DNA of 64,000 nucleotides from Candidatus Bathyarchaeota archaeon (GCA_029259355.1 JAPDIZ010000003.1:147710-211709), one strand, 5' to 3'. Positions 25,830 through 63,011 are shown, counted from the first letter of the stretch. Numbers and translations: made by a program. The notes: generated by a model not told the origin, from the letters alone.

Positions 25830-27254
25830 TTATGGCTGTTTACGCTGTTGAAAACCTTCGCCCATTTGTTTATGCGCTAAGAAGGAACTTTTTTCTGCAG
25901 GAAAAATTAGATATAAAAGCGATGTGAAAGAAGAAATTATTAGCACATAATGAAGATAAAGCATTACGTTAAAAAGTAGAGGCCTACTGATTTTATCAAT
26001 TCCCTCTAAGTAAGAGATTATTTCACAAATCCTCCACGGGTTACTCCACGACAATATTTTTGGGTATGCAAAGCCCAATAAGACAGTTCTTATGTCGTAG
26101 AAGTTGATTTTAAGGTCTTCAAAATATATAAAAATGAGGGGATGAATTTGATTAATTGATACTACACATAGAAGGAGAACTAATAAACAAATATATCGAG
26201 AAATATATGGAGAGAGATTCGAAGCCCGTAAGTACGCGAACATCTCACGAAGGCCTAGAGCTTCCATTAATAGAAGAGAAGGCATGAAAATAGGGGGATA
26301 CCAGTCACAATAATATGCTACCACAGTAGAAGTCCCGCAAAACATAACGATGAAAAAGAGTAGTGCATAAAGATAGTTTTGTTCTCTTTTCTTTAGGAAA
26401 TACATAATTGAGATGCATACTCCATAGATAAAAATGACAAAATTAGGAAAGGGCAAGAAAAAATGTATGCGCTTGATATAAGAAAGATACATCCAATAAC
26501 CCTCCCTATAAAATGTTGTACTACGAATCTGCCATCCTCCTCCCATTAAATTTAACATAGGTCCAAAGGGAGAACCTGTGTGTACTGTATTGAGGTAAAG
26601 CCACGGAAGTAGCGTAAATATAATTGCAATAACGCCTAAGCTAAATTTTTCTATTTTCTCCATACTAAGATTTTTTCTTGTAAGAACCAAAAACAATATA
26701 TAAAAAATGAAGAGGAAAGAGGCAAAATATTCTGCCTCAAAAGCTAGAGCAGAAAAAATTCCTAATAGAGGGAACCAGTACCATTTGGAATTCTCTTGCA
26801 AGCACTTCCAAAATATATACGTAGAAATCAACATAAGTGTTGAACAAATAGTCGTTATGCGAGTTTGATTACTAAAATACCAATAGATATAGGATAAGCC
26901 AAGAAGTACGCTAAAGTAAAACCCTACTTCTTCATCAAACAGATCCGAACCTAAAACATATGCAAAAATAATAGCTAGCAAATTTATTAACGGAAAAGTA
27001 TAGAGAGAAAGTTGCACTGAATATTCGACAGGACAACAAAATGCATCGCATATACGAACAATTAAAGAAATAACGGATTGAATGAAAAGTTCTCCCCTAG
27101 TATCTAGCTGCGTTAAGGTTACGTCTATGTTATAGCCAGCTAAATAATAGCCAGCCAGTATTCTTTCTGGCCCCTCTCCACCTATATGCACATAAGGCAA
27201 TAAAGCTATGTGAGCAACAACTATGAGTAGCAACAAAAACTTACGCCACCACAT
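25830..27254 (-). CDS. Polytopic membrane protein, family E copy 1; GT-C (PMT_2-like) candidate
   Basis: 474 aa with AGYYLAGYNIDV, INLLAIIFAYVLGSDLFDEEVGFYFSVLL and GIFSALAFEAEY. It is a paralog of 55252..56640 (GMYLAGYDIPYD, MLFDRRVGLVAAAL, ALAFLTRY). Confidence 0.78.
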   Translation of the reverse strand: MWWRKFLLLLIVVAHIALLPYVHIGGEGPERILAGYYLAGYNIDVTLTQLDTRGELFIQSVISLIVRICDAFCCPVEYSVQLSLYTFPLINLLAIIFAYVLGSDLFDEEVGFYFSVLLGLSYIYWYFSNQTRITTICSTLMLISTYIFWKCLQENSKWYWFPLLGIFSALAFEAEYFASFLFIFYILFLVLTRKNLSMEKIEKFSLGVIAIIFTLLPWLYLNTVHTGSPFGPMLNLMGGGWQIRSTTFYREGYWMYLSYIKRIHFFLPFPNFVIFIYGVCISIMYFLKKREQNYLYALLFFIVMFCGTSTVVAYYCDWYPPIFMPSLLLMEALGLREMFAYLRASNLSPYISRYICLLVLLLCVVSINQIHPLIFIYFEDLKINFYDIRTVLLGFAYPKILSWSNPWRICEIISYLEGIDKISRPLLFNVMLYLHYVLIISSFTSLLYLIFPAEKSSFLAHKQMGEGFQQRKQP

Positions 27255-30155: not shown

Positions 30156-30211
30156 ATTCGGAAAAATATGTACCAAAAAGGGTTTAAATTACGCTAAACA
30201 GAGGATAAGGC

Positions 30212-31912
30212 GTGAGAATACTAGCCTTTATTTTTCAAAGATTTTTCCTATTTCCTATTGATTTGTACAGTATTTTTAGGATGGTGGCTATCGCTTTCAT
30301 CTTAACTACCTCATCTATGCTAAGTTTGGCATTTATTGCCGGAAGCGACGTTAGGTATAAGGTATTTGTTGTTGCGGAAGGAGAAGATGAGTTCCAAGAA
30401 GTTAAGCAGGTTTTGGAAAAATCCCTTGAAAACGTAGTGGTTTACGATATCCGCTATGAAAACAACGAACTCGCTACGCTTACGGAGCTTAACTGCGTGA
30501 GAACGATTGTTTTAGTATACGATGGCGACATTCAATTCCTGCTCCAAAGAAATGTCCTTATTAGCTTGGAGAGGGTAGATGAATGCGTGCTTTTTTCCAG
30601 AGGTGAGCTACCTCCCGAGGAGGTTCTGCAAATCCTTGACAGTCTACTGAGATCTAGGCTTAAGGTTGCGAAGAGCTACTCTGAATTAATCAGCAAGCTC
30701 CCCGTGTATAGGCGCAGAAGCTTCTTCAGCATAAACTGGGATACCGAGACATACTTCCTTCTCGTTAGAGCTGTCGGCGTCGCTTCTCTGCTCACCATCT
30801 TCTTTGGCGCTGCTCTCTTGAGTATAACGTGTTTTTTGCTGAGAGCCCTTGTCAGAGATGAGCTAGCTTTCTTTTCGGCATCGCTTACCTCGGCATTCTT
30901 GATCTTTACCACCATACAGATGGCTTACGTCGTATGTAGCTCCGTTTTGGAAATCCCCTTAGGACTGCACTGCACAAAAATAGGATCTAGCCCGTGGAAT
31001 TCGCTTACCATCATAGGTATGTTAGGGCCTTTTGGCGGAGGAACTTTTCCAAGACTTTTCGCTGGGTTAACTGGCTTTTCGCTAAGCACAATCGCTATCA
31101 CGTTAAGAAGAGAAGCTGATGAAGCTGTATGCTATCTACCCTCTCTAAGGACTAGACTTTTCATAGCTTCCTTGGTTCTGGTGGGAGCATACTTTGCGTA
31201 TACCATTTCATCGCTTAATGAACTCATTAACCAGCCCATTGTTGGGGAAGTACTTTGCCGCAAAATGATAAACTCATTCGCCATCTACCAAGATTTGCTA
31301 GTTGGTAAGGCCGTTCCGTCGAGGGGGATAATCCTATACTACATCGGCGTCTCTCTGTTTTGCGCCCTACTCTTAGCGAGGTCTAAGGCGTTCTCAGCAG
31401 CTTCGCCTATAGCGGCTGTTTTGATTGCTTGGGGGTTGATGAGGGTGGGTAATCTCAACCTTGAGCAAGCTATGTGCAGCTCGATTATCGGAGTGATGCT
31501 TGGCTTTGCAACGTTTCTGCTATGCGCAGCGTACCTCAGCCTCCTAAATAATTTTCACAGACTTTCGAGCACGGATGCTAAGAAGCTTCTACACAGCTCT
31601 GAGTTTAGACGAGAAAGCATCGTCTTAACGTGTATAGCGCTTCTCTACTGTACGGCTTGGAGTAAGCTTAGCGGTACTTTACTCCCACTTTTCGCGCTAT
31701 GTACAACATACTTTCTCTTGCGCACCAACTTGAGGAAAAAGCCCTACATAGCAGCGATGTGGATGATTCCAGCAGCTGCTTCTATGCTGCTACTAATGCT
31801 GTGTATACCTACTGAGGTCTTGTTTCCTGCTATTCTCAGCGCATGCGCTGCTAGATGCTTTGACACATATCATAAACCATTCAAAAGACTAAGCTCTGTA
31901 CTGTGCAGTTAG
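30212..31912 (+). CDS. Membrane protein, family B copy 1: N-terminal anchor, a soluble domain of about 150 aa, then a polytopic domain; function unknown
   Basis: 566 aa with a GTG start. Motifs: KVFVVAEGEDEF...LNCVRTIVLVYDG, LEIPLGLHCTK, LGPFGGGTFPRLFAGL, AWGLMRVGNLNLEQ. All are shared with 50251..52011. It lies 56 nt downstream of family A copy 2. Confidence 0.85.
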   Translation: MRILAFIFQRFFLFPIDLYSIFRMVAIAFILTTSSMLSLAFIAGSDVRYKVFVVAEGEDEFQEVKQVLEKSLENVVVYDIRYENNELATLTELNCVRTIVLVYDGDIQFLLQRNVLISLERVDECVLFSRGELPPEEVLQILDSLLRSRLKVAKSYSELISKLPVYRRRSFFSINWDTETYFLLVRAVGVASLLTIFFGAALLSITCFLLRALVRDELAFFSASLTSAFLIFTTIQMAYVVCSSVLEIPLGLHCTKIGSSPWNSLTIIGMLGPFGGGTFPRLFAGLTGFSLSTIAITLRREADEAVCYLPSLRTRLFIASLVLVGAYFAYTISSLNELINQPIVGEVLCRKMINSFAIYQDLLVGKAVPSRGIILYYIGVSLFCALLLARSKAFSAASPIAAVLIAWGLMRVGNLNLEQAMCSSIIGVMLGFATFLLCAAYLSLLNNFHRLSSTDAKKLLHSSEFRRESIVLTCIALLYCTAWSKLSGTLLPLFALCTTYFLLRTNLRKKPYIAAMWMIPAAASMLLLMLCIPTEVLFPAILSACAARCFDTYHKPFKRLSSVLCS

Positions 31913-32889: not shown

Positions 32890-34380
32890 ATGTTGCTTGG
32901 ATCGACCATAGCAAGACTATTTCAAATTATTTACGTAATCTTTGTTGTACGCCTTCTTGGTCCACAAGACTACGGTCTTCTCGCGCTTGTACTCGCCGTA
33001 ACTGGAGTTATTACTTCAGTAATAGATCCTCACGTAGGTCTCGCTACCGTTAAGCTTTACACAGAGAAGCAAGACCAACACTTTCTATACATCGCCCTCA
33101 TTTTCTATATTTGTGTAGGAGTAGCTTCAGCAGTTGTAATCCTTCTCTTTGGTGATATTGTAATTGCTAACCTAGCTGGGTCGCAAGCTAGCGAACGTCG
33201 TTTTGACCTTGTATTGATCTTTATTAGTCTTTTGATAATATTGATAACTACTAATAGTTTGTATTCAACACTCTTCGAATCCTTCTTTTTATTCAGCTAT
33301 GAGGCGCTTATGATAGCTACTAGACGCATACTCATCTGTATACTTGCAGTAGTAGCTCTGTTTTGGGGATACGGGCTCTTAGGGGTATTTGCCGCAATAA
33401 TCGCCGGGTACTTGATTCCCCTTATAATCCTTATGCCAATAGCTTACGAAATACTAAAAGCGCAAATTAAGACAAGGATTCGTGTAGGCATTCTGTGGAG
33501 CAAATTTGTCGAAGTTCTACAGTTTGGCATTCTTGCCTATATCGCTACCGTCATGTATCAATTTTACACATCATCCGACGTTATCTTAGTTGGATACTTT
33601 AGATCGCTCTGGGATGTTGGACAATATAGCGCAGCACTTCGCTTAGTTAATGTTGTTTTGCTTATCCCATCAGCGTTTATCTCGGTATTAATGCCAGTTG
33701 TGTCGAGGATTTCTGGAGAAAAAACTCTAAGTGAGCGCGAGATATCATCCATAGTAGGACTTACGCTTAAGTATACAATGATCCTAGCAGTACCCTTTTG
33801 CATGGTTTTATCTGCCAATTCTTTCCTAGTGATAACAAGCCTTTTTGGGATTAGTTATCAATATTCGACGGAAGTGCTTCCCCTATTATCAATTTTTGCA
33901 ATATTATTAGCATCTTACATCGTTTTCGACTCTACTTTGGTGGGGTTGGGTAAGCTCATCGAGAGGATATTAGTTTCGCTGACCATGTTAATATGTGGAC
34001 TGATTCTGCACATAGTTCTAATACCTACGATAGGCATATACGGGGCAGCGCTATCTATGCTTCTCTCAGCTGGAATTGGTACTCTCTCTGCTATGTTCGC
34101 TCTTCGCTTAACACCCTCAAATCTCCTGGCTGCTAACGTTGCCAAATTCGCGATAGCCTTAACTCCCTTAGCCCTTTCATCGCTAATAGCAACTACTCTC
34201 ATGAACAGCTTAGCAGGTATTTGTTTGTTAACGATCTCTTTAGCAGGCTATGCTTTGCTGCTTTTGCTTCTAGGAGTAATCGATGAAAAAGATCTCGATA
34301 ACTTCTCAAAAGTATCCATGCTTTCCCCAATTGCTAAATTTGGGAAGAGCGTTCGGAAGAAAGTTTTGAAAAGAGGCTGA
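32890..34380 (+). CDS. wzx: Wzx-like polysaccharide/oligosaccharide flippase (MOP superfamily); the 5' end is probably frameshifted
   Basis: About 12-14 TM segments, with FVVRLLGPQDYGLLALVLAV near the N-terminus. The frame is open upstream (..SGKALATGSFAMLLGST..) with no start codon. An ATG at 32801 lies one frame off, across a G5 run at 32810-32814. Adding one G gives MNNGGKSAIRQQIDSQEWSSGKALATGSFAMLLG. Confidence 0.82.
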   Translation: MLLGSTIARLFQIIYVIFVVRLLGPQDYGLLALVLAVTGVITSVIDPHVGLATVKLYTEKQDQHFLYIALIFYICVGVASAVVILLFGDIVIANLAGSQASERRFDLVLIFISLLIILITTNSLYSTLFESFFLFSYEALMIATRRILICILAVVALFWGYGLLGVFAAIIAGYLIPLIILMPIAYEILKAQIKTRIRVGILWSKFVEVLQFGILAYIATVMYQFYTSSDVILVGYFRSLWDVGQYSAALRLVNVVLLIPSAFISVLMPVVSRISGEKTLSEREISSIVGLTLKYTMILAVPFCMVLSANSFLVITSLFGISYQYSTEVLPLLSIFAILLASYIVFDSTLVGLGKLIERILVSLTMLICGLILHIVLIPTIGIYGAALSMLLSAGIGTLSAMFALRLTPSNLLAANVAKFAIALTPLALSSLIATTLMNSLAGICLLTISLAGYALLLLLLGVIDEKDLDNFSKVSMLSPIAKFGKSVRKKVLKRG

Positions 34381-48839: not shown

Positions 48840-50009
48840 TTAATGGCGACAAGCGGCTTGCAACACCTTCTCCAACACATCTGCGTAGCTTGGTGGCTGC
48901 TGTGGTAGGGGCTGCTCTTTACCAGCTAAGGTCCCTAAGATCGATTCAGCAAGCTTTTGGCTATCTATCTCCTCAAGAACGGAGACGCCGCGTTTGCCTT
49001 TTAGATGCGGTTGTTGCGCGGTTACCACGGGTTTTCCCACGCAAAGGGCTTCGTATATCTTGAAGGGTGTGTAATACATCCCTTTTCTCCTCGTTAGAGG
49101 ATGTTTTTCGGGGTTTAGAGGTGCTACCACCACATCTGCTGCGTTTAGGTAGTTGGGTACTTCATCGTGAGGAACTGGTCCTGTAAACACGAATGCCTCG
49201 CTTAGCCTAAGCTTGTGAACGAGTTGTTGGTGCTTTTGGTAGTGAGGGCCTATCATCAGAAACTTGGTTCTGGGCTCTTTTTTAAGCACTTTTTTAGCTG
49301 CCTTTATTAAGTCGTCTACTCCGTGCCATGGGGCGAAGCTTCCCACATAGGCTACTACTGGTCGATCTTCTTCGATTCCGAGCTTTTTTCTAACCGCTTT
49401 TCCCGCCTCGATATTTGGTCTGAACTTTTCGATATCTACGGGAACTGGTACTTCAGCTACTTTGTTTCGCATCAGCCTATGCCTCTTCAGAAGCGGAAAG
49501 AGCCCCGGATATGCCATAATCTTCTTTGCCCTTAGCGTGGAGAGGATGCTTATTTCGGGAGAGTTTGCAGCAACGACCATTGGCTTTCTAGTCAATATGC
49601 TGGCTATTGCTCCAGCTCCGTAGGAGCTCTCCCTCTCGATAACCACGTCAACTCTGTATCTCTTTATGATGAGCGCTGTGTAAAGTCCTACGTAAATGGG
49701 GTGTATGAGCTTTAGGTATATCTTATAGACTGGGGTTAGGAGCTTCTTCAACAGCTCGGCGAAGAAGCTCGGGGTTTTTTCCTCGAGCTTTGGCTGTGTA
49801 AGTGGCGGCTCCGCAACGATTCCTCTGTGTATTCTGTGAAGGAGATATCCATCAAGCTTTTGATGAGCTGGTTGACCAGATAGACGCCTACAGACTATGT
49901 GAACTATATGACCTCGCTTCACTAGCCCTTTTCCTAAGTGCTCGGCATGTATAGATGAACCTCTTTGATAAGGAATTATGACATCCGATGCCACATAGCA
50001 TATTCTCAA
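48840..50009 (-). CDS. GT4 glycosyltransferase (G+C-richer than its neighbours)
   Basis: 389 aa with a TTG start. Motifs: MRICYVASDVIIPYQRGSSIHAEHLGKGLVKRGH, YVGSFAPWHGVDDL, FKIYEALCVGKPVVTA. Confidence 0.8.
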   Translation of the reverse strand: MRICYVASDVIIPYQRGSSIHAEHLGKGLVKRGHIVHIVCRRLSGQPAHQKLDGYLLHRIHRGIVAEPPLTQPKLEEKTPSFFAELLKKLLTPVYKIYLKLIHPIYVGLYTALIIKRYRVDVVIERESSYGAGAIASILTRKPMVVAANSPEISILSTLRAKKIMAYPGLFPLLKRHRLMRNKVAEVPVPVDIEKFRPNIEAGKAVRKKLGIEEDRPVVAYVGSFAPWHGVDDLIKAAKKVLKKEPRTKFLMIGPHYQKHQQLVHKLRLSEAFVFTGPVPHDEVPNYLNAADVVVAPLNPEKHPLTRRKGMYYTPFKIYEALCVGKPVVTAQQPHLKGKRGVSVLEEIDSQKLAESILGTLAGKEQPLPQQPPSYADVLEKVLQAACRH

Positions 50010-50211
50010 CGCATAGACTCACCGCTTCCAATAAGTAAACGCCGATTTCATCCCTCTTTGTGTTTTAATATAAAATCAAATTTTTGCGTAACTCTGGTAT
50101 TGGATTACTATTCAGGTCGTAAATTTTTTGAGTGGCATCCCGTAGACTCATCGTCTGTTTTGCATTACTTAGAGAAATCTCTATAATTTAGAAACAGTCG
50201 CTTATGTGGAC

Positions 50212-50227
50212 AAAGTTAAATATTTTA
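50212..50227 (+). promoter_or_regulatory. Candidate archaeal TATA box (aaagTTAAATAtttta) for the family B / family A gene pair
   Basis: An A/T-rich TTAAATA element centred about 32 nt upstream of ATG 50251. This spacing would give a very short or absent leader. Based on sequence pattern only. Confidence 0.3.
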
Positions 50228-50250
50228 CTCACAATCAAACCTAATGCTTT

Positions 50251-52011
50251 ATGCGAGGAATTAGAGTTTTGAGCAACATATCTCTGCAAAAGCTTAGTAT
50301 GAAAAAACTCTTGAAACAAATCTTTACTGCAGCAAAGACTTATGACGATGACGCTATTATCAAAAATACTATTCTAGCTTTTTCTTTGTCTCTTCTACTG
50401 CTATTCAATTTGTGCTTAGTAGCGGGCAAAGACCCTAGGCTGAAGGTATTTGTAATTGCCGAAGATCAGAAGACGTTTTTCCATATGAAGGAGGAGATAG
50501 AGCAGATTTCGCCAAACATAGTTGTGTATGGTCTTGAAGATGAGAAAAATGAGTTGCCACTTCTCGCGAAGCTTAACTGTATAGGAGTCCTCGTCTTGGT
50601 TTATGAAAATAACCCACAGTTTTTTCTAAAAGAAGAGATTGTTCATACTATGGTGTGTGTAGATCGCTGCATAATTTTGCTTAAAAACTATTCACTAAGT
50701 GAAAAGGAAAAAATAGTATCCACGTTACGAAGTAGATTACCGCCCAATACAGGGATTATTGATAATGAACAACAATTGCTTGGTTACATCAAGGAATATA
50801 GCAGCAGGCGTCATTCTATTAATCTTCTTGGAGTTGAGTGGAATCTTCAACAATATATTTTCTTCGTAAGAGTGATATCGATTGTCTCATTGATTGTTTT
50901 ATTTATAGGTCAATTCCTAATTACATCGATGTGTATTGTAATGAATAACAAGTCGTATGAATTTCCGATAGAGTCTTTCCTCAGCGCTCTCCTCATTTCT
51001 GGAGCGATTTTCTTAATAATGCAGCTGTCTTATAGATCTTGTAGCGCATTACTTGAAATACCTCTTTCGCTGCACTGTACCAAAGCTTTTGAAAACCCTT
51101 TTCGTGCGCTTACTGCGATCAACTTTTTGGGGCCTTTTGGTGGAGGAACTATTCCTAGGCTTTTGGCGTCGCTTCTTGGCTCATTTACTGCTGTATGCTT
51201 CTTCGGTTGGACTCGAAGCAAAAGAGAATTGATTCCAAAAATTTTTCTTATAGGCTTATTTTTCTCAACTGCTCTTTTGATGTTTACGTTCGCTACTGTG
51301 AGCTATGGATCTGATTTGGTTGTAATTAAGTACTTTTTTGATAGGTCGGCGGATTTTGTGCAGTATTACCAGTATTGGTTTGTGGGTTTATCGGTAATTT
51401 CTAGAGGGATTATGTTGCTTTTTATTGGAGTGGCTATGATCTGTGCTTTTCGCAACGCATCGGACAAGATATACTCGTTTTTTGCTCCTTTCTCTGTTGT
51501 TTTGTTGGCTTGGGGTGGTATGCGAATTGGGAACATGAATTTTGAGCAAACCCTCAATAGCTTTATCGCAGGCTTGATCACTTCTTTAGGCATATACTTT
51601 ATCCTAACAACTTACTTGAGTTTTGAAAATAATGCGAGATATTTGTGGAGTAATAGAAAAATTGTTGTTAAAATGTCTTTAAGTAGGAAAAATGTTCTAC
51701 CTACCTATTGCTTAGCTATTGGCTTCGCATCTTTTGTAATCCTTTTGTTTAATGTAGCAGGGGTTTTGCATCAATTTTTGTTTTCACTATTGTTGATTGC
51801 TACCTCAATTCTTTTAATACCTAGTGTGAAAGTTTTATACGCAGATGACGTGAGGGTCAATTTCTTAAGGATTTTTCTTGTGCTTCCTGTAGCTGTGGCG
51901 CTATGGACTATTACGTGGATTTTGCCTGATGGGGTTTCACTTTTCTTCATCTTTGTAACAGGTTTTGTTGCATATATGAATATTGTCCTTCAGAAAATGA
52001 AAAAGTTCTAG
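50251..52011 (+). CDS. Membrane protein, family B copy 2; function unknown
   Basis: 586 aa with KVFVIAEDQKTF...LNCIGVLVLVYEN, LEIPLSLHCTK, LGPFGGGTIPRLLASL and AWGGMRIGNMNFEQ. It is a paralog of 30212..31912 and lies 88 nt upstream of family A copy 3. Confidence 0.85.
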   Translation: MRGIRVLSNISLQKLSMKKLLKQIFTAAKTYDDDAIIKNTILAFSLSLLLLFNLCLVAGKDPRLKVFVIAEDQKTFFHMKEEIEQISPNIVVYGLEDEKNELPLLAKLNCIGVLVLVYENNPQFFLKEEIVHTMVCVDRCIILLKNYSLSEKEKIVSTLRSRLPPNTGIIDNEQQLLGYIKEYSSRRHSINLLGVEWNLQQYIFFVRVISIVSLIVLFIGQFLITSMCIVMNNKSYEFPIESFLSALLISGAIFLIMQLSYRSCSALLEIPLSLHCTKAFENPFRALTAINFLGPFGGGTIPRLLASLLGSFTAVCFFGWTRSKRELIPKIFLIGLFFSTALLMFTFATVSYGSDLVVIKYFFDRSADFVQYYQYWFVGLSVISRGIMLLFIGVAMICAFRNASDKIYSFFAPFSVVLLAWGGMRIGNMNFEQTLNSFIAGLITSLGIYFILTTYLSFENNARYLWSNRKIVVKMSLSRKNVLPTYCLAIGFASFVILLFNVAGVLHQFLFSLLLIATSILLIPSVKVLYADDVRVNFLRIFLVLPVAVALWTITWILPDGVSLFFIFVTGFVAYMNIVLQKMKKF

Positions 52012-52099
52012 CTTAAAAAAGCTGTGATAGTATTGTTTTCCATGATGTCTTAGATGAGGGGTTCGTTTCATCCCCATAAAAAGTTTTTAAAGGTGCTAT

Positions 52100-53851
52100 A
52101 TGGTGATTGAGGTAAAATTTGGTGATTTGTTGCGGGATAAGCCGATTTGGCAGCGATCATTTGAACAAATGCATCAACAAATGCTTTTGTTCATAGTTGC
52201 GGCTATTGGGTATATTCTTTTGCTTACTACGTATTGGTTAATTGGATTTGCAATAATTTTTTGTTTAGCACTTTCTAGATTCGTTCATTTAAGACTATCA
52301 ACACCTATTATCATCAAAAGGGTTCTCGTGTTAGTTATCTTAATCCTACTTGCTGTTGCGTCGCTACCCTGTTCTTTCTATGGTGAGATTAGCGAATTTG
52401 TTGTAGAGAGTGGTTATACGGTGGGTGTGGCGTTTTTGCTTCTTCCAAATCTTTACTATATTTTTATGGGAATTTTTGGAGAGTTCTCCGATATCGTTGT
52501 CTATGCGATAAATCTTCTGCTCTTTTTTGCACTATTTTCTCTATTGCTTCATGAAGAGGAGAGATGTATCGGTGTTCGAAAGCTATTGAAAATTCACATT
52601 ATGAAGGTTCGTAGGGTAAAAGTTTCTAGAAATGCTTTGAGGTGGTTGTTTCTTCTTTTTTGTATGCTTCCCATTTTCTTAATGTTTCTTAAGCTTTTCT
52701 ATGGTACTCAAGGTTTTTGGCTGTTTTCTGTAGCAGATATGTTGCTACGTAAGCTACGAATCACGACAGTAGTAATACCCTACCTCGTCCTTCCACTTGT
52801 TATCATTTGGCCAAGAATTCTAGAAGTCTCTGACCAATTTCTCAAAAAAGAATTAGCATATATTGGGAAAAGGGTTGTAAAGTGTTACCACTTTATGATT
52901 TTGTTCATAATCCTTTGGTTTCTATTCTTAGATTTGACTCATGTATCGCTTAATGACCCCAACCTATGCATGACCGATGACAGACATTACTTTAGAATAT
53001 GGACTCATATGAGGAGTGGAGCAAGTTTTTACGAAGCGTGGGCGAGGGAAAATCCTGAAAATACTGAGGCTCATATTCACTGGTCAGCTCCCTTTTTCAT
53101 CTGGGCTCTCTGTAAAAACGTGTGGTGTATAAAGCTAGAGTACTTCATACTTGGTGCAGTTTCTCTCATATGCTCTTTCTTCTTCGCAAAAAAGATGACA
53201 GAAAATTATGTTATTGGGATTTTGTCGATGCTTTATTTGCTATGCTTTTACTCAAGAGGGTTCTTTTGGTTTATGTTGGATCACTGGGCTACTGTTCCAG
53301 AAATGCTTGGGCTCGTGTTTATGGTGTTTCAGCAACACGTTTTATCTGCAATCTTCTTGGGAATGTCGTTTTTCTTCAAAGAGAGCTTTATTACAGTAAT
53401 CGCATCCACAGCTGCTGTCTTCGCACTTTGGGCTATCTATCTTCACTTCGTAAAAAGAACAAAGATTTCGCTTGTAGAATACGGATCTTATAGCTTAGCT
53501 TTTCTCGCTGTGATTTCTTTTATAGCATACCACTCTGCAACTTATGCAGGTCCCGTATTCAGCAAGTTCTTTTTTGGAGAGATTCACCTAAACTTTTTGC
53601 TACACCACTTCTGCTACTACATGTATCCAATTGGTCTCGTAAACTTTTTGTTAGCTATTTTGGGAATCCTATCAATATCCGATAGAAAAATACAGGCTGT
53701 TTTGCTGGCAATCATTGTAGTCACTCATCTCTCTTTCTTGCTAATCATACATGGGTGCTCAGATGTTTTAGCAAGAAATGCGGCGCCAGCTGTTTTCGTC
53801 GAGTTCTTATTAGCTCCTCTTGGAATTGCAACGCTGTCATCCAAGTCTTGA
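52100..53851 (+). CDS. Polytopic membrane protein, family A copy 3; function unknown
   Basis: 583 aa with NDPNLCMTDDRHYFRIW, SGASFYEAW, CKNVWCIKLEYF, SRGFFWFMLDHW and FFFKESF. The start codon is uncertain. Confidence 0.83.
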   Translation: MVIEVKFGDLLRDKPIWQRSFEQMHQQMLLFIVAAIGYILLLTTYWLIGFAIIFCLALSRFVHLRLSTPIIIKRVLVLVILILLAVASLPCSFYGEISEFVVESGYTVGVAFLLLPNLYYIFMGIFGEFSDIVVYAINLLLFFALFSLLLHEEERCIGVRKLLKIHIMKVRRVKVSRNALRWLFLLFCMLPIFLMFLKLFYGTQGFWLFSVADMLLRKLRITTVVIPYLVLPLVIIWPRILEVSDQFLKKELAYIGKRVVKCYHFMILFIILWFLFLDLTHVSLNDPNLCMTDDRHYFRIWTHMRSGASFYEAWARENPENTEAHIHWSAPFFIWALCKNVWCIKLEYFILGAVSLICSFFFAKKMTENYVIGILSMLYLLCFYSRGFFWFMLDHWATVPEMLGLVFMVFQQHVLSAIFLGMSFFFKESFITVIASTAAVFALWAIYLHFVKRTKISLVEYGSYSLAFLAVISFIAYHSATYAGPVFSKFFFGEIHLNFLLHHFCYYMYPIGLVNFLLAILGILSISDRKIQAVLLAIIVVTHLSFLLIIHGCSDVLARNAAPAVFVEFLLAPLGIATLSSKS

Positions 53852-53866
53852 GGAAAGAGTGGTTTG

Positions 53867-55138
53867 TTAAAGGCTTTGTGTAGTGGGTGTGGGATGGTAG
53901 AAGCATTGCGCAGGTTTCATACTGTATAACCAGTCAGAATTTGATGCAGTTTGCACTAATTCTTGTATTTTTTCCAATTTGTTGTTTGCTATTTTAACGT
54001 GTAGTGGAATGATTTCCATCTTTGTTTTTCCGAGAAGAGATGAGGAGGGTATGTAGAGGTTTGTCGAAGCAATTATAAGCAGTATCAGTAGTGGAAGCAC
54101 TTGTCTCGGCAATGATTTTTCGCTAGAAATTTTCTCCAAGAATTCACTCAGTCCGTAGGAGGCTATTATTAGGAAGAGTGGGGTATAGTGCACCATGTGC
54201 TGATCGCTGTGGGGAAGTGTCGGCACTAGGAATATGTGGAATAGGTAGCAGTATATTGCCCAAGTAGGAAGAAAAAGCAACCTGTTTTTGTACAGATATA
54301 TGAAACCGAGTAAAGCAAAAAGAAGTGGAAGGAGTGTAGCTCCTAGAGCGAAGGGTAGCCAACAAGCTATGTTGGTGTTAAAGTAGAAGGGGATGTATTG
54401 CTTTTCGAAGATGCCATACCACTTGATTCTCATCAAGAGTGGGTATAGAGGATGCCCATAGCGGAATTGACATACCATCGCAAATAATGAGAATGTGAGC
54501 AGAAAAGAGATTGAAGAGATAGCTAGATGTTTTGCATCTAAACTATTTGTCAAAACCATTGCAAAAGCCCAAATTATTAGTGGTGGAATTAGGTAGAGAG
54601 CGCTTTCTTTTGCCCAGAGGCATAGCGCTAATGATACTCCGATTAGTGCAGCGACCTTTGCTTCTCTTTTCTCTAAATACGCTGCGATTAGCCCAAATGT
54701 AAGAACCATAAACGCGCCTAGGATTGCGTCGTTGAGCACTCTGTGCTCGTACCAGCTTAACTGCCAGTTCCATCCAACTAGTAGTGCGGAGAGATACCCT
54801 ATCTTCTCGCTTTTGAGGTAGTATCTTCCTACTAAGTAAGCTCCAAGCATTAGCAATAGCAGCGACAGGATGCCCCAGCTACAGAGACTATACAGAAACC
54901 AAGGAAAACCTAGTGCTTTGTACAAAGCGCCGATGTAGACGTGTAGCAGAATCATTTTGTCTGGTACTACTGGAGTTGAGGCTTCTCCAACTAAGTACAT
55001 CCCAGTGATGATGTTCCAGTACTCATCTGGGTAATGCTTTATTGGATATCCGCCGTAAAGCCAAGCAAGGATGCAGTGATAAACTACTGTGGCAAAAGCT
55101 CCCAATCGATATGATGCCTCGACTTTGCCATACGCCAC
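53867..55138 (-). CDS. Polytopic membrane protein, family C copy 3; GT-C-like
   Basis: 423 aa with a GTG start. Motifs: YPDEYW, LGFPWFLY, VGWNWQLSWYEHRVLNDAIL, LWAKE. It is convergent with family A copy 3, with 15 nt between the stops. Confidence 0.8.
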   Translation of the reverse strand: MAYGKVEASYRLGAFATVVYHCILAWLYGGYPIKHYPDEYWNIITGMYLVGEASTPVVPDKMILLHVYIGALYKALGFPWFLYSLCSWGILSLLLLMLGAYLVGRYYLKSEKIGYLSALLVGWNWQLSWYEHRVLNDAILGAFMVLTFGLIAAYLEKREAKVAALIGVSLALCLWAKESALYLIPPLIIWAFAMVLTNSLDAKHLAISSISFLLTFSLFAMVCQFRYGHPLYPLLMRIKWYGIFEKQYIPFYFNTNIACWLPFALGATLLPLLFALLGFIYLYKNRLLFLPTWAIYCYLFHIFLVPTLPHSDQHMVHYTPLFLIIASYGLSEFLEKISSEKSLPRQVLPLLILLIIASTNLYIPSSSLLGKTKMEIIPLHVKIANNKLEKIQELVQTASNSDWLYSMKPAQCFYHPTPTTQSL

Positions 55139-55251
55139 TGTCTCTAACCACCTAATGCTTCCAAGATTTGGGTATTTGAGAATGGGTTTCTAGCTACTCC
55201 ATTCTCTAAAACCTTTTTGGAGCTAGATTACTAAAAGAAACCACCACATTA

Positions 55252-57327: not shown

Positions 57328-57362
57328 GTTTGCTCTGGAGAGGAGTGTATCGATGTATGTGC

Positions 57363-59069: not shown

Positions 59070-59072
59070 GAG

Positions 59073-59082
59073 CTTTTTTTTT
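59073..59082 (+). terminator. Oligo-T tract (T10) directly after the GT4 stop codon
   Basis: The sequence tag-gagc-tttttttttt lies 4 nt after the stop at 59069. Oligo-T runs are the usual archaeal intrinsic termination signal. Confidence 0.5.
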
Positions 59083-59462: not shown

Positions 59463-61199
59463 GTGTTTGTTCAACGTTTCGAAAGCTTAAGAAGAGAGTC
59501 AGCTTTGTCTGCTGCTGCGCTAAGTAAGTCTCGGAGATTCCACATTTTTTCAGTTGTCTTTGTAGCTTTGGCGTATCTGCTTCTCCTAACGCCATACTGG
59601 ATTTTTGGTCTACTATCTCTCTGCTTTTTTGCAGCGATTTTTGCTGTGAATCGGGTTGTTTTTTGCTGGAGGCTCTTCGCAGTGGTTGTGATATCGCTTC
59701 TCGCTGCATCAACTATGTGGTGTCCGTTGTATGAGGGCATTAGCTTCTTGGTGACTTCATACGGCTACTCGCTTGGTGTGGCCTACTACCTCCTACCAAA
59801 TCTGGGGCTTTTACCCAAGATGCTTGATGAGTTGCTTGATCAGCGCTCATCGACCTTTCTTTACTGGGTCTTAGTTGTTTTCGCAAACTCGATACTGCTC
59901 GTAAGCATGGAGTTGGTATTTTTCTCAGGATATAGAGGTGGATTTAAGAGATTCTTGCAAAAATTTTCTGCTCGTACACATGTTTCGAAGATATTGGGTT
60001 TAGGCTTTATCGTTTTTTCTATAGCTTCAATGGGTTTTGTGTGTGCGATATTGCTTGGTGAAGCCTATGAGGTACTGCGCCCAATACTCTTCTTGTACTA
60101 CCCTCTGAGGATATCGTCCGTCCTAGCCCCCTTTGTCTGCATCCCGCTTTTCTTGGCTTATCCCGATCTCTTGAAGTGGCTTCACGAAGTATTGAACAAA
60201 CCCTTTTTCAGCGTTGGTGGGGGAGGAATTAGGTGCTACCACCTATTCATCTTGTTCTTGGTCTCAAGCTTTTTGGTTCTGGATTTTTCGATCACGGCTC
60301 CCGATGATGTGGAGTTTTGTAGCGTAGATGATAGGCTCTACTATCAGGTTTGGAGAGGTGTAAGAGAGGGCATCGGTTTTTACGCAGTTTGGAAAAGCGC
60401 TTTCCCAGAAAATACCGAGGCTTGTATGCACCACTCTTTGACTTACTCGATGTGGTTTTTATGTGACGAAGTCCGTTGCATCAAGATGGAGTACTTCTTG
60501 GTTTGTTCCCTCGGCTTGTTAGGCGCTTTCTTCTTCGCAAAGCGGATTTCGCAAAACGCGTTTTTGGCTGCATTAGCTGCACTGTATATGCTTAGCTTCT
60601 TTACGACTCGAGTGTTTTGGTTTATGCTCGACTACTGGTCTGCAGCTCCCATGGTTTTGGCTATGGCTTTTCTAGCTCACGATATGCACGTCGTATCCTC
60701 AGCGCTTCTCGTGATCGCTTTCTTTATGAAGGAAACTACTGCTCCTGTTCTCGCAGCTGCTGCGCTGCTGTATTCATTAATTCCTTTGGCGAAGTCGAGG
60801 AGGGGTGTTTTTGACGAAAGATACGCAGCTTATGCGTTGGGGTTGATCGTTGTTCTCTCTTTTGCGGCAATAACCTATGCGTTTTGGATGAGGGTCCAAG
60901 GGATGTTTCTACACGTTTTTCGACCACATCACTTCATTAGGCAAATTGCTTGGTTTATGTACCCAATTGGGTTGGTCAACTTTTTGCTGGCTTTTCCAGG
61001 GATGCTTTCGGTTAGAGATAGGAGGCTTAAGATGCTGCTGTTTTTAGTCGTTGTCGCTACGCACTTGCTCTTTCTTACCTACAACCAGCCTTCTGAAGGA
61101 GCTGCTAGAAACGCGATGGCAGCGATCGCTGTTGAGTACCTAATGGCTCCTCTTGGCATAGGTGCTCTTGCTGAAACAAGAAAAGCTGGTAGACTTTAA
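59463..61199 (+). CDS. Polytopic membrane protein, family A copy 4; function unknown
   Basis: 578 aa with a GTG start. Motifs: PDDVEFCSVDDRLYYQVW, EGIGFYAVW, CDEVRCIKMEYF, TRVFWFMLDYW, FFMKETT, FRPHHFIRQIAWFMYPIGLVNFLLA, SEGAARN. It is G+C-richer than copies 1-3. Confidence 0.85.
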   Translation: MFVQRFESLRRESALSAAALSKSRRFHIFSVVFVALAYLLLLTPYWIFGLLSLCFFAAIFAVNRVVFCWRLFAVVVISLLAASTMWCPLYEGISFLVTSYGYSLGVAYYLLPNLGLLPKMLDELLDQRSSTFLYWVLVVFANSILLVSMELVFFSGYRGGFKRFLQKFSARTHVSKILGLGFIVFSIASMGFVCAILLGEAYEVLRPILFLYYPLRISSVLAPFVCIPLFLAYPDLLKWLHEVLNKPFFSVGGGGIRCYHLFILFLVSSFLVLDFSITAPDDVEFCSVDDRLYYQVWRGVREGIGFYAVWKSAFPENTEACMHHSLTYSMWFLCDEVRCIKMEYFLVCSLGLLGAFFFAKRISQNAFLAALAALYMLSFFTTRVFWFMLDYWSAAPMVLAMAFLAHDMHVVSSALLVIAFFMKETTAPVLAAAALLYSLIPLAKSRRGVFDERYAAYALGLIVVLSFAAITYAFWMRVQGMFLHVFRPHHFIRQIAWFMYPIGLVNFLLAFPGMLSVRDRRLKMLLFLVVVATHLLFLTYNQPSEGAARNAMAAIAVEYLMAPLGIGALAETRKAGRL

Positions 61200-61268: not shown

Positions 61269-63011
61269 GTGGGAGCTATGATATGTGTTTATAAATGCTG
61301 GGAGAAAAGAGGCGCTTTAACAAAACTTTTACTAACTACCTTGGGCTTTCTTTTGATATTGACCAATCTTTGGTTTGTTGGAGTAATCATTCTTTTTGTA
61401 CTCGCAGCCCTCACCTCAAGTTCGCGTAAAGCAAAAGTGGAGGCAGTTGCTTCGATAACAAAAAAATCCGTTCAGCTATTGGTCATCATATTGTTAGCTG
61501 CATCTACCTTGTGGTGTCCGTTGTATCAAAGTATTGTAGATGCTGTTGAGTGCTTGGGATATCAGTCAAAAATTGCGTTCTTTATGCTTCCAAACCTTTC
61601 GCTACTACCTCGATACTCACTGCTCTCTTGGATATACTCGTTCTACCAGTTGTTGGTCATAGTCATAAATGGCGCTATGCTTTTGGTTGCGCTATCGATA
61701 ATCGATGATGAGTTTAGGTCTAGTATTAGAAAGTTTGGACAAAGGCTTTCTCTTAACCTAAATCGTAGAGCAGCCATACGAATCGCATGTATTTTATTGT
61801 TCATTCTCTCAGCGATTTTCTACTTGTTAACGCTGAGGGTTTTGCTTGAAGGAACCTACGAGGGGTTCGAGCCCTTTATCTACATCGCTCACTTAATCAG
61901 ATATTCTTCAGTTGGTATTCCATACGTCATTATTCCGCTCATCGTAGTTAAGCCAGATTTGGTCAAGAAGCTTTCGCTTGCCTTGGAGACGGAGGTTGTT
62001 GAGCAAAATGATTTCAGGATCAAGTGCTACCACTTCCTCATAGTCTTTGTGATTACGAGCTTCTTGCTTGTGAGCTACACAGTTGTTGAGCCGAGAGACC
62101 CAAACATCGTAATGTTTGATGACAAGACATACCACGGTGTTTGGATGTACATCAAAGAAGGTGTTGACTTCTACAAGGCTTGGGAGAAATCCTTTTTTCC
62201 AGATCCCATACCTCACGTACACTATTCTTTAGCCTTTGTCATCTGGATGGTTTGCAAACGTGTAGAGTGTGTCAAGTTCGAGCTTTTTCTTCTCTGCTCA
62301 CTAGCTTTTATCAGCACGTTTTACGCTATACGGCGAATAACTGGAAGCGCTTTTTTGGGGGCACTATCCATGTTCTACGTCTTTAGCTTTTTCTCGATCA
62401 AGATTTTCTGGTTTATGCTTGAGCCATGGGCTGCTCCTCCCGCTATTCTCGGAATCGCTTTCTTGTCCTATGGCCAGTACCTACTCTCTTCGATTATGCT
62501 GACTTTATCCTTCTTCTTTAAGGAGACGATGCTGCCTTTGCTCTTAGTTGCGTCTGTGTTCTATCCGTTTTTACGGATATATTGGGAGGAGAGGCTTCAG
62601 CTGTCTAAGAAGTTCTATAGCGAATACTGCTTTCCTCTCTGCTTGCTCTTAACAGCAGTATTTATCTTGATGCACTCAGCTACCTACTTTAGTGAGCAAA
62701 GAGCGGCGTATTTCTTCGACATGTTTGCACCACACTTGTTCATACATCAAATCTCTTGCTTCATGTTTCCTATTGGATTGGTGAATTTTCTGCTCGCGAT
62801 TCTCGGGCTTGTAACCGCCCTCAGAAGCGATGCGCATAGAGCAACAGTTGCCTTTCTGCTGCTGGCTGTGGTGTTTACTCATTTCTTGTTCATCGTTTGT
62901 ACTGGAGGATGCTCTCTTTCGAGTGCGAGGCATGCAGAAGCTGCTCCCTTAATAGAGTTTATGACAGCTCCGCTAGGGTTGCGGGTTTTTGCGGAAGATG
63001 ATGGAGGGTAA
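61269..63011 (+). CDS. Polytopic membrane protein, family A copy 5; function unknown
   Basis: 580 aa with RDPNIVMFDDKTYHGVW, EGVDFYKAW, CKRVECVKFELF, IKIFWFMLEPW, FFFKETM and FAPHLFIHQISCFMFPIGLVNFLLA. It is in tandem with copy 4, with a 69-nt gap. Confidence 0.85.
   Translation: MGAMICVYKCWEKRGALTKLLLTTLGFLLILTNLWFVGVIILFVLAALTSSSRKAKVEAVASITKKSVQLLVIILLAASTLWCPLYQSIVDAVECLGYQSKIAFFMLPNLSLLPRYSLLSWIYSFYQLLVIVINGAMLLVALSIIDDEFRSSIRKFGQRLSLNLNRRAAIRIACILLFILSAIFYLLTLRVLLEGTYEGFEPFIYIAHLIRYSSVGIPYVIIPLIVVKPDLVKKLSLALETEVVEQNDFRIKCYHFLIVFVITSFLLVSYTVVEPRDPNIVMFDDKTYHGVWMYIKEGVDFYKAWEKSFFPDPIPHVHYSLAFVIWMVCKRVECVKFELFLLCSLAFISTFYAIRRITGSAFLGALSMFYVFSFFSIKIFWFMLEPWAAPPAILGIAFLSYGQYLLSSIMLTLSFFFKETMLPLLLVASVFYPFLRIYWEERLQLSKKFYSEYCFPLCLLLTAVFILMHSATYFSEQRAAYFFDMFAPHLFIHQISCFMFPIGLVNFLLAILGLVTALRSDAHRATVAFLLLAVVFTHFLFIVCTGGCSLSSARHAEAAPLIEFMTAPLGLRVFAEDDGG

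What the first reader, a model, noticed from the sequence alone, without database searches (positions are those of the whole stretch)
50251..53851. Second A/B pair with the gene order swapped (B then A)
Family B copy 2 (50251..52011) lies 88 nt upstream of family A copy 3 (52100..53851) on the same strand. The same two families are adjacent at 28374..31912 in the order A then B. The protein sequences have diverged substantially, so these are not recent copies. Retention of adjacency in both orders therefore argues for functional coupling rather than a single duplicated block.
Basis: partly seen in the sequence, partly recalled or inferred. Interest (0 to 1): 0.75.

Follow-up and report, generated by a model that had tools for sequence, protein, structure and literature searches.

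The report
Divergent glycosyltransferase plus orphan membrane gene
Two neighbouring genes in a large cell-surface sugar-coating gene island encode a very divergent membrane glycosyltransferase and an unclassifiable membrane protein; they move together as a small cassette in this genome, but related genomes do not keep them side by side, so they are probably pathway-mates, not an obligate pair.

Summary
B2 (50251..52011) and A3 (52100..53851) are intact same-strand ORFs 88 nt apart. A2-B1 (28374..31912) is the same two families in the opposite order. The window holds five A copies and two B copies.

Both families are extremely rare and have no Pfam or NCBIfam match. Family A's C-terminal ~330 aa is a remote homologue of PMT_2/ArnT-type GT-C glycosyltransferases (hhalign 93.6%, E 2e-7; controls negative), and it carries an extra ~6-TM N-terminal domain. 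Family B remains an orphan: one TM, an alpha/beta ectodomain, then at least 7 TM with invariant Cys/His/Arg predicted on the outer face.

B2-A3 is a single 3.9-kb, low-GC insertion/deletion relative to a colinear locus in a related genome. In every other genome found, A and B are not adjacent: 22 kb apart, 3 kb apart and convergent, or alone.

B1/B2 and the A2/A3 clade are both lineage-specific expansions. One ancestral pair that duplicated can therefore explain both orders. Adjacency in the window is only marginally above chance (P=0.05).

Verdict: same glycan-assembly system, likely; obligate A-B coupling, not supported. Moderate interest.

The parts
50251..52011 (+). B2: orphan family B membrane protein (586 aa). 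It has an N-terminal TM, an alpha/beta (flavodoxin-like) domain at about aa 61-198, then at least 7 TM plus a C-terminal TM extension.
   Evidence: ORF. No Pfam or NCBIfam match. The AF2 model is confident only for aa 61-200, and its Foldseek matches are flavodoxin/receiver-like folds. Invariant C264, S265, P271, L274, H275, G294, F296, S384, R385, G422, G427 and Q433 across 5 homologues.
52012..52099 (+). 88-nt B2-A3 spacer. It has an SD-like GGTG 6 nt before the A3 ATG and no terminator.
   Evidence: Sequence. No terminator-like site in 49800-54200. The fold is no better than shuffles, z = +0.95.
52100..53851 (+). A3: family A protein (583 aa). An N-terminal ~6-TM extension (aa 1-250) is joined to a GT-C-like glycosyltransferase module (aa ~255-583). 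The module carries the motifs D293-D294, H327-W-S, FWFM (389-392) and K427-E428.
   Evidence: ORF. Invariant residues. hhalign of the C-terminal module against PMT_2 proteins gives Prob 93.6%, E 2.1e-7, with negative controls. AF2 gives pLDDT 64, pTM 0.69.
50019..53890 (+). B2-A3 cassette: a ~3.9-kb segment present in the window but absent from the colinear locus of a related genome (L007). It is inserted antisense between the minus-strand PMT_2 and GT4 genes. The right boundary is approximate (53890-53966).
   Evidence: blastn matches L007 3362-4377 to window 49003-50018, and L007 4571-4999 to window 53967-54395. Junction alignment. GC3 is 0.375 and 0.387, against 0.44-0.58 in the flanks.
28374..30155 (+). 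A2: the family A copy upstream of B1.
   Evidence: It is 54% identical to the 8053 copy and is its sister at 100% bootstrap. GC3 0.36.
30212..31912 (+). B1: family B copy, sister of B2. It lies upstream of the Wzx flippase, as does its homologue P0025 in a related genome.
   Evidence: GC3 0.48.
32890..34380 (+). Wzx-type (Polysacc_synt) flippase, 977 nt downstream of B1.
   Evidence: Pfam PF13440/PF01943. B followed by Wzx is also seen in L001/L010.
8053..9783 (-). Family A copy without an adjacent B. It is followed on the same strand, 587 nt downstream, by PMT_2 gene 6164..7465.
59463..61199 (+). Family A copy. Its orthologue P0006 in L005 is 58-60% identical. No adjacent B.
61269..63011 (+). 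Family A copy. Related copies are L005 13418-15160 (52% identical) and P0007 (41%). No adjacent B.
53867..55138 (-). PMT_2 (GT-C) paralogue convergent with A3, 15 nt between the two stop codons. It belongs to the conserved backbone shared with L007.
   Evidence: Pfam match. 62.5% identity to L007 4462-5574.
48840..50009 (-). GT4 glycosyltransferase divergent from B2. It belongs to the conserved backbone shared with L007.
   Evidence: Pfam match. 81% identity to L007 3121-4368.
22876..23652 (-). One of three ArnC/DPM1-like small GT2 enzymes (the others are 3120..3812 + and 18276..19028 +). These are candidate polyprenyl-phosphate-sugar synthases that would supply donors to the GT-C enzymes of the island.
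   Evidence: The best NCBIfam hits are undecaprenyl-phosphate Ara4FN transferase, PgfS, PpgS, AglJ and dolichyl-phosphate hexose transferase.

Best explanation
B2-A3 is a two-gene accessory cassette inside a hypervariable surface-glycan (glycosylation) island.

A3 and its four paralogues are highly divergent GT-C-superfamily glycosyltransferases. The catalytic module (aa ~255-583) has the PMT_2/ArnT-type layout: a TM helix, then an extracytoplasmic loop that starts with an invariant Asp-Asp and two short helices, then further TM helices and a Lys-Glu motif. By analogy it transfers a sugar from a polyprenyl-phosphate-sugar to a glycan or protein acceptor on the outer face of the membrane. The donors would be made by the ArnC/DPM1-like GT2 enzymes of the island. 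The N-terminal ~6-TM extension is specific to this family and has no known role.

B is an orphan polytopic membrane protein. It has an alpha/beta ectodomain, and its invariant Cys, His and Arg residues are predicted to face outward. I infer that it works on the same outer face in the same glycan pathway, as a processing, polymerising or transport component.

The A-B adjacency is specific to this lineage. One ancestral A-B pair was duplicated within this genome's lineage. The B-A order can arise as the inner unit of a tandem A-B-A-B array. One copy was then inserted, or retained, as a 3.9-kb unit in a conserved backbone operon. The two genes are pathway-mates that travel together here. They are not an obligate conserved pair.

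What is shown: the ORFs, the paralogy, the rarity, the GT-C homology of A, the indel, and the lack of conserved adjacency. What is inferred: the donor type, the topology, B's role, and the duplication route.
For: - Paralogy and coordinates.
- Island context: at least 8 PMT_2 genes, GT2, GT4, Wzx and nucleotide-sugar enzymes.
- A as GT-C: hhalign of a 20-sequence profile of the A C-terminal module against 13 PMT_2 proteins gives Prob 93.6%, E 2.1e-7 over 307 columns. A's DD aligns on the PMT loop-1 D(E) motif, and FFFKE aligns on the PMT K(E) motif. Reversed-sequence controls give E 0.07-0.11, and B vs PMT gives 0.68.
- D293, D294, K427 and E428 are invariant in all five copies.
- The AF2 model places the DD at the start of two short helices that follow a TM helix.
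- GT-C enzymes (DPY19, ArnT, STT3) are among the top 7 Foldseek hits, although none is significant.
- Stand-alone proteins of 285-480 aa match only the C-terminal module.
- In L006 and L011 an ArnC-like GT2 follows A after 9 nt.
- Cassette.
- Lineage-specific expansions: B1+B2 are sisters at 97.5%. The A tree is ((8053,28374)100,52100)66, with no external sequence inside that clade.
- Adjacency is absent elsewhere.
- Co-occurrence of the two rare families on single contigs.
Against: - No Pfam or NCBIfam model recognises A.
- The Foldseek matches to GT-C structures are not significant (E >= 0.8), and the model is weakest (pLDDT 35-55) in much of the C-terminal module.
- B's function rests on topology inferred from hydropathy and the positive-inside rule only. 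Its model is poor (pLDDT 46).
- The A clade that joins A2 and A3 has only 66% bootstrap support.
- A2 and B1 differ in GC3 by 12 points, which a simple block duplication does not explain.
- The direction of the indel (insertion here or deletion in the relative) is not determined.
- Only parts of the L004 and L005 contigs could be read, so absence of the partner family applies only within about 10 kb.
Confidence: 0.55

Rival explanations
1. Direct functional coupling. A and B act as a complex or in consecutive steps. For example, B's ectodomain could bind the acceptor for the GT-C enzyme A, which has no large soluble domain of its own. Selection would then keep them adjacent and co-transcribed.
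For: - Both B copies in the window are next to, and on the same strand as, an A copy, with P = 0.03-0.05.
- B2-A3 is one indel unit of uniform composition, with a short spacer and no terminator.
- The two rare families co-occur on one contig in three organisms, and are 3 kb apart in L006.
Against: - Adjacency is not conserved in any other genome examined. Of 6 B loci only the 2 in the window have an adjacent A, and of 11 A loci only the 2 in the window have an adjacent B.
- Three of the five A copies in the window are unpaired.
- B1/B2 and A2/A3 can share one ancestral adjacency.
- Stand-alone homologues of the A module exist.
Confidence: 0.17
2. B is a transporter, specifically a flippase for the polyprenyl-phosphate-sugar donor of A. 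B, A and an ArnC-like GT2 would then form a Gtr-like three-component extracytoplasmic glycosylation system with a new kind of flippase.
For: - Three-component systems need a GT2 synthase, a flippase and a GT-C enzyme (PMC11127046, read). The island has ArnC-like GT2s and GT-C enzymes, but no GtrA-like flippase was detected.
- There are weak transporter-like hits for one B homologue: ABC2_membrane_2, E 5e-4, 19.8 bits, and the RbbA permease, E 1.4e-3. Both align on the TM helices that follow the ectodomain.
Against: - Both hits are below the curated cut-offs and are seen only for two forms of one gene (P0002/P0025), one of the six B homologues.
- No ABC ATPase was found in the window or the related loci.
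- The invariant polar residues are predicted on the outer face and an ectodomain is present, which suggests an enzyme more than a flippase.
- No internal repeat was detected.
- B occurs without a nearby A.
Confidence: 0.12
3. B is a Wzy-type polymerase or ligase-like enzyme that works with the Wzx flippase on lipid-linked repeat units, independently of A. Under this reading A merely sits beside it in a crowded island.
For: - B1 lies upstream of Wzx on the same strand, and so does its homologue P0025 in the related genome, which has no A nearby.
- L004 has a Wzx 3.8 kb from its B copy.
- No recognisable Wzy was detected in the island.
- From general knowledge, Wzy proteins are polytopic, very divergent and often lack Pfam hits.
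- B's invariant His and Arg are predicted on the outer face.
Against: - No profile similarity to Wzy_C/O-antigen ligase models or to GT-C proteins.
- An N-terminal alpha/beta ectodomain is not typical of Wzy.
- B2 and the second B copy of the related genome are not next to a Wzx.
- Two B copies sit alongside one Wzx in the window.
Confidence: 0.16

Closest known systems
PMT_2 / ArnT-type GT-C glycosyltransferases (Pfam PF13231; CAZy GT83/GT39-like)
   Same: A's C-terminal module aligns with them over 307 profile columns (Prob 93.6%). The loop-1 acidic motif and a Lys/Glu motif are in register. A is polytopic, sits in a glycosylation island next to bona fide PMT_2 genes, and ArnC-like GT2 donor synthases are present.
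   Different: No Pfam or NCBIfam model detects A. A has an extra ~250-aa, ~6-TM N-terminal domain found only in the full-length family. The catalytic module is short (~330 aa) and has no large extracytoplasmic domain. Only 8 representatives at E <= 1e-30, and 21 at E <= 1e-3, were found among 1.84 billion representative proteins.
Three-component extracytoplasmic glycosylation systems (GtrA/GtrB/GtrC; the GT136 system of PMC11127046)
   Same: The logic matches: a polyprenyl-P-sugar synthase (GT2) plus a GT-C transferase decorate a surface glycan, the genes are often accessory or mobile, and they determine serotype. B2-A3 is likewise an accessory low-GC cassette.
   Different: No GtrA/SMR/MATE flippase is adjacent. 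The GT2 is not part of the cassette in the window, although it is adjacent to A in L006 and L011. B is not a recognisable flippase.
Wzx/Wzy-dependent polysaccharide assembly
   Same: A Wzx (Polysacc_synt) flippase lies next to B1 and next to its homologue P0025. B is a polytopic orphan of the kind that Wzy proteins often are.
   Different: No sequence or profile evidence links B to Wzy or WaaL. The N-terminal alpha/beta ectodomain is atypical.
ABC-2 type permeases with an extracytoplasmic domain between TM1 and TM2 (ABC2_membrane_2; RbbA/YhhJ type)
   Same: The architecture is similar: TM1, then an ectodomain, then a TM bundle. Sub-threshold HMM hits fall on the TM helices after the ectodomain.
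   Different: The hits are below the cut-offs and come from a single homologue. No partner ATPase is nearby. B has more TM helices and strongly conserved outer-face polar motifs.

Membership tests
GT-C glycosyltransferase superfamily (PMT_2/ArnT-like), for family A | A polytopic membrane domain of 7-13 TM helices (definition quoted in PMC11127046). | tested here: met
   The AF2 model has about 16 helices, and the C-terminal module has about 9-10. The hydropathy scan agrees.
GT-C glycosyltransferase superfamily (PMT_2/ArnT-like), for family A | An extracytoplasmic loop after the first TM of the module that carries conserved acidic catalytic residues. | tested here: met
   D293-D294 are invariant in the five copies and conserved in most distant relatives. 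hhalign places them on the PMT_2 loop-1 D(E) motif. The outward orientation is inferred from the K/R-rich segment that precedes the TM.
GT-C glycosyltransferase superfamily (PMT_2/ArnT-like), for family A | Significant sequence similarity to a recognised GT-C family. | tested here: inconclusive
   Pfam and NCBIfam hmmscan give no hit, and a profile search against PDB sequences gives no hit. Profile-profile comparison against the PMT_2 proteins of these loci gives Prob 93.6%, E 2.1e-7, with negative controls. Smaller profiles gave 18-44%.
GT-C glycosyltransferase superfamily (PMT_2/ArnT-like), for family A | Structural match to solved GT-C enzymes. | tested here: inconclusive
   Foldseek against the PDB gives no hit with E < 0.6. 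DPY19 (7zli), ArnT (5f15) and STT3 (8agb) rank 2, 5 and 7 with TM-scores 0.10-0.24. The model pLDDT is 64.
GT-C glycosyltransferase superfamily (PMT_2/ArnT-like), for family A | Use of a lipid-phosphate-linked sugar donor. | not testable with these tools
   Context only: three ArnC/DPM1-like GT2 enzymes are in the window, and one lies directly after A in L006 and L011.
Conserved gene pair / operon-level coupling of A and B | Adjacency conserved across genomes that carry both families. | tested here: not met
   In the related genome NODE_23, A is 21.7 kb from one B copy and about 31 kb from the other. In L006 they are 3 kb apart, convergent, with three genes between. L004 and L005 carry one family with no partner within 10 kb.
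Conserved gene pair / operon-level coupling of A and B | Congruent phylogenies (co-duplication). | tested here: inconclusive
   B1+B2 are sisters at 97.5%. A2 and A3 are in one window-specific clade, but with 66% support and with the unpaired 8053 copy nested inside. Two B copies give no statistical power.
Wzy-type polymerase / O-antigen ligase, for family B | Match to Wzy_C/O-antigen ligase or EpsG-type models, or to the GT-C_B fold. | tested here: not met
   No Pfam or NCBIfam hit. The AF2 membrane domain is unusable (pLDDT < 50).
Wzy-type polymerase / O-antigen ligase, for family B | Genomic association with a Wzx flippase. | tested here: inconclusive
   Met for B1 and P0025, with a Wzx 3.8 kb away in L004. 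Not met for B2, for L010 19475-21127 or for L006.
ABC-2 type permease, for family B | Score above the curated family threshold, and a partner ABC ATPase. | tested here: not met
   ABC2_membrane_2 scores 19.8 bits against a cut-off of 27.2, and only for P0002/P0025. No ABC_tran protein was found among the scanned neighbours.

The most novel reading that the evidence does not exclude
A and B together form a previously unrecognised two-part extracytoplasmic glycosylation machine restricted to a small uncultivated lineage. In this reading, A is a GT-C enzyme with a fused 6-TM domain. B is a new class of partner, either a novel lipid-linked-sugar flippase or an acceptor-binding/processing subunit that supplies the ectodomain A lacks. 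The pair moves between loci as a serotype-switching cassette.
Probability: 0.12. Interest if true: 0.7.

Novelty: new variant of a known kind. Interest (0 to 1): 0.38.

Why it matters
If the reading is right, family A adds a very divergent branch to the GT-C glycosyltransferases. It has an unexplained fused membrane domain and is invisible to current Pfam and NCBIfam models. Family B is a true orphan that repeatedly accompanies it in giant, fast-evolving glycan islands of uncultivated microbes. Such islands determine surface antigenicity and probably virus and host interactions. The B2-A3 cassette is a concrete example of how they diversify, by gain or loss of small low-GC gene cassettes inside a conserved backbone. 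The finding does not overturn a known principle. Its value is in annotation (a new GT-C subfamily) and as a candidate for structural and biochemical study of B.

Tried and rejected
- Pfam and NCBIfam scans of A, B and their homologues gave nothing above threshold.
- Word-indexed homologue searches returned only the query itself plus one B homologue, even when an alignment was used as query.
- Pattern scans of the GTDB species representatives found neither family. JGI metagenomes gave one B locus and no A locus.
- Profile searches of A and B against PDB sequences gave only noise.
- Foldseek on the A model was not significant. On the B model it gave only generic flavodoxin/receiver-like matches to the ectodomain. 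The top hits there, GPCR-flavodoxin fusion crystal constructs, were rejected as artefacts of that domain.
- hhalign found nothing for: B vs PMT_2, B vs A, the A N-terminal domain vs PMT_2/B/Wzx, the two halves of B against each other, and orphan U615 vs A/B/PMT_2.
- The sigma-70 promoter and terminator scans were at chance level.
- Neither spacer RNA fold was unusual.
- No flanking direct or inverted repeats mark the cassette ends, so a transposon-like mobile element was rejected.
- No tRNA or Rfam RNA is present in the window.
- The sample accessions are not mentioned in the paper library, and the cluster look-up gave no names, so the organism is unidentified. The best solved relative of the WecB-like enzyme is 4NEQ, which from memory is archaeal. 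This is a hint only.


Full report
**Observation.** The ORFs are as described. B2 is at 50251..52011 + (586 aa) and A3 at 52100..53851 + (583 aa), separated by 88 nt. A2 is at 28374..30155 + and B1 at 30212..31912 +, separated by 56 nt. An all-vs-all BLASTP of the 41 large ORFs shows five family A copies (8053, 28374, 52100, 59463, 61269) that are 34-52% identical, and two family B copies that are 32% identical. There are no further fragments of either family in the window. The B2-A3-PMT_2 arrangement recurs almost identically in two other assemblies. In shuffles of the gene order, both B copies lie next to an A copy with P = 0.050, and on the same strand with P = 0.032.

**Context.** The whole window is a glycosylation island. 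It contains:
- at least eight PMT_2 (GT-C) paralogues;
- five GT4 and four GT2 enzymes;
- a Wzx-type flippase;
- WecB, a WbpB/D/E-like trio, and an AsnB-like amidotransferase;
- sulfatase/phosphodiesterase-type enzymes, methyltransferases and deacetylase-like proteins.

Three small GT2 enzymes are most similar to ArnC, PgfS, PpgS, AglJ and dolichyl-phosphate hexose transferases. These are polyprenyl-phosphate-sugar synthases, which make the donors used by GT-C enzymes.

**Rarity.** Neither family has a Pfam or NCBIfam match.
- An exhaustive HMMER search with the five-copy A profile against 1.84 billion representative proteins found only 21 hits at E <= 1e-3. Three stand for the window's own copies. 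Three are full-length relatives (P0006, P0007, P0008). One is a 369-aa protein that matches only the C-terminal module (P0010). Three are fragments (98-340 aa). The remaining eleven are distant proteins of 285-478 aa that match only positions ~257-575.
- Neither family was found in the 185,579 GTDB species representatives by pattern scan.
- B has five homologues outside the window's species: P0002/P0025, L010 19475-21127, L004 9938-11272 and L006 6882-8237.

**What A is.** The five copies share four invariant motifs: DD-x2-Y-x3-W...G-x2-[FL]Y (D293/D294), H-x-S...W, FWFM, and F[FM]KE (K427/E428). The distant stand-alone proteins share the same block.

A profile of the C-terminal module (20 sequences) compared with a profile of 13 PMT_2 proteins from the window and related loci gives Prob 93.6%, E 2.1e-7 over 307 columns. 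The alignment runs from the TM helix before the DD motif to the C-terminus. It places DD on the PMT_2 loop-1 D(E) motif and KE on the PMT_2 K(E) motif. Controls are negative: reversed profiles give E 0.07-0.11, B vs PMT_2 gives 0.68, and the A N-terminal domain vs PMT_2 gives 0.36. Smaller profiles had given weaker signals of 18-44%.

The AF2 model (pLDDT 64, pTM 0.69) shows a TM helix (262-278), then two short helices that begin at the DD motif, then further TM helices. From general knowledge, this is the GT-C_A layout. Foldseek gives no significant hit, but DPY19, ArnT and STT3 are among the top seven.

I conclude, at about 0.8 confidence, that A is a very divergent GT-C glycosyltransferase with a family-specific N-terminal domain of ~6 TM helices (aa 1-250). 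In L006 and L011 the A gene is followed after 9 nt by an ArnC-like GT2. This fits a polyprenyl-phosphate-sugar donor.

**What B is.** B has an N-terminal TM helix, a ~135-aa alpha/beta domain (the only part modelled with confidence, and flavodoxin/receiver-like by Foldseek), and then at least seven TM helices. B1 and B2 carry a ~100-aa C-terminal TM extension that three of the four other homologues lack. Across five homologues the invariant residues include E98, N100, E101, C264, S265, P271, L274, H275, G294, F296, S384, R385, G422, G427 and Q433.

Applying the positive-inside rule to the sequence (my inference, not a tool result) puts the N-terminus inside, and the ectodomain and conserved motifs outside.

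The only database leads are sub-threshold hits of one homologue to ABC-2 permease models. No ATPase is nearby. No profile relation was found to PMT_2, A, Wzx or U615, and no internal repeat was found. B remains an orphan. I infer an outer-face role in glycan assembly.

**Is the pair coupled?** Evidence for a link:
- L007, from a related genome (contig NODE_23, 160.7 kb), is colinear with window 48840-64000. The shared order is GT4, PMT_2, PMT_2, MNT/HEPN, GT4, A, and a 656-aa orphan, at 41-90% protein identity and 66-92% DNA identity.
- That locus lacks B2-A3. About 3.9 kb of the window (≈50019..53890) replaces about 110-190 nt of L007.
- The cassette lies antisense inside a co-directional minus-strand gene string.
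- Its GC3 is uniform (0.375 and 0.387), against 0.44-0.58 in the flanks. No flanking repeats were found.
- So B2 and A3 were gained or lost together.
- The two rare families also share a contig in three organisms.

Evidence against an obligate pair:
- In NODE_23 the A gene is 21.7 kb from one B copy and about 31 kb from the other. Those B copies have other neighbours: a phosphodiesterase and Wzx for one, a GT2 and a PMT_2 for the other.
- In L006, A and B are convergent with three genes between them.
- L004 has B with no A within 10 kb. L005 has two A copies with no B within 10 kb.
- Three of the five A copies in the window are unpaired.
- B1's conserved neighbour is Wzx, and A2 and B1 differ in GC3 (0.36 vs 0.48).

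**Are the two orders independent evidence?** NJ trees show B1 and B2 as sisters (97.5% bootstrap) relative to all other B proteins. They place A2 and A3 in one window-specific clade, ((8053,28374)100,52100)66, while the external A proteins pair with 59463 and 61269. Divergence is similar in the two families (38% and 32-36% identity). This is what a single ancestral A-B pair would give if it was duplicated within this lineage and A then duplicated alone (8053). Both genes are on the same strand in both pairs, so an inversion cannot swap the order. A tandem A-B-A-B array, however, contains an inner B-A unit that could be the 3.9-kb cassette. The two orders therefore probably record one ancestral adjacency. 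The GC3 mismatch of A2 and B1 is not explained by this scenario.

**Co-transcription.** Co-transcription is possible but untested. The spacers are short, with SD-like sequences before A3 and B1. There is no terminator-like site and no unusual RNA structure.

**Comparison with known systems.** Functionally, the closest analogues are extracytoplasmic post-assembly glycosylation systems. These are built from a polyprenyl-P-sugar synthase, a flippase and a GT-C enzyme (Gtr and the GT136 systems; PMC11127046), and are often accessory and serotype-determining. A fits the GT-C role. The GT2 role is filled elsewhere in the island. B does not match any known flippase, polymerase or ligase.

**Verdict.** The feature is an accessory cassette that encodes a new, very divergent GT-C subfamily and an orphan membrane family in a hypervariable glycan island. 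Obligate A-B coupling is not supported. Interest is moderate (0.38).

Noticed in passing
window 27611-27804 (+ frames): A frameshifted fragment of a UDP-GlcNAc 2-epimerase (WecB) gene, 45-48% identical to aa 91-153 of the intact copy at 3844..5184. It lies in the 1.1-kb gap between PMT_2 25830..27254 and A2, and is a sign of past rearrangement at the A2 site.
   Followed up: partly
window 45655-45935: A methyltransferase pseudogene fragment, related to 19095..19580, in the 932-nt gap between the DUF2334 gene and GT4 46326.
   Followed up: no
window 57019-57713 (-): A small MNT (nucleotidyltransferase, 102 aa) and HEPN (116 aa) gene pair, typical of toxin-antitoxin modules. It sits inside the island and is conserved at about 92% DNA identity in L007, and is also present in L005.
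   Followed up: partly
window 6164-7465, 24324-25616, 53867-55138 (PMT_2 group 1); 25830-27254, 55252-56640 (group 2): Each A copy of the clade (8053, 28374, 52100) lies beside a PMT_2 gene: a group-1 copy for 8053 and 52100, and group-2 25830, with group-1 24324 just beyond it, for 28374. The four families A, B, PMT_2 group 1 and PMT_2 group 2 occur together twice (24324-31912 and 50251-56640) in different arrangements. The PMT_2 group-1 tree (24324 closest to 53867) does not match the A tree (28374 closest to 8053). A next to PMT_2 is also seen in L005 and L012. In the window, A-PMT adjacency is not above chance (P = 0.24).
   Followed up: partly
window 1-64000; per-gene table: The island has a mosaic composition, with genes in roughly two GC3 classes (about 0.30-0.40 and about 0.44-0.58). 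The right end (48840-64000, except B2-A3) is the high-GC backbone shared with a relative whose locus has 49% GC. The variable part of that relative's island (L001) has 37% GC.
   Followed up: partly
window 42327-44174 (-): An orphan 615-aa polytopic membrane protein with no Pfam or NCBIfam hit and no profile relation to A, B or PMT_2. It is another unassigned membrane component of the island, possibly the Wzy-type polymerase.
   Followed up: partly
window 63222-64000 (-), runs off the window: The C-terminal part of a ~656-aa orphan protein with no Pfam hit. It is conserved at 61-64% identity, and in the same position downstream of an A gene and convergent with it, in L005 and L007.
   Followed up: partly
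window 34388-36346 (+): A 652-aa protein with no Pfam hit and a partial NCBIfam match (E 2.5e-25) to the UDP-2,3-diacetamido-2,3-dideoxy-glucuronate deacetylase VimE. Together with the WbpB/D/E-like genes at 37814-40602 and WecB, it suggests a diacetamido-uronic acid sugar in the glycan.
   Followed up: no
L006 3937-4650 and L011 11777-12490: In the most distant genomes that carry family A, the A gene is followed after 9 nt by an ArnC/DPM1-like 237-aa GT2. This is a tighter and more conventional pairing (donor synthase plus GT-C) than A with B.
   Followed up: partly
P0012, P0021, P0022 (distant relatives of the A module): Some stand-alone homologues of the A C-terminal module carry an N-terminal zinc-ribbon in place of the 6-TM extension, so the module combines with different N-terminal parts.
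   Followed up: no
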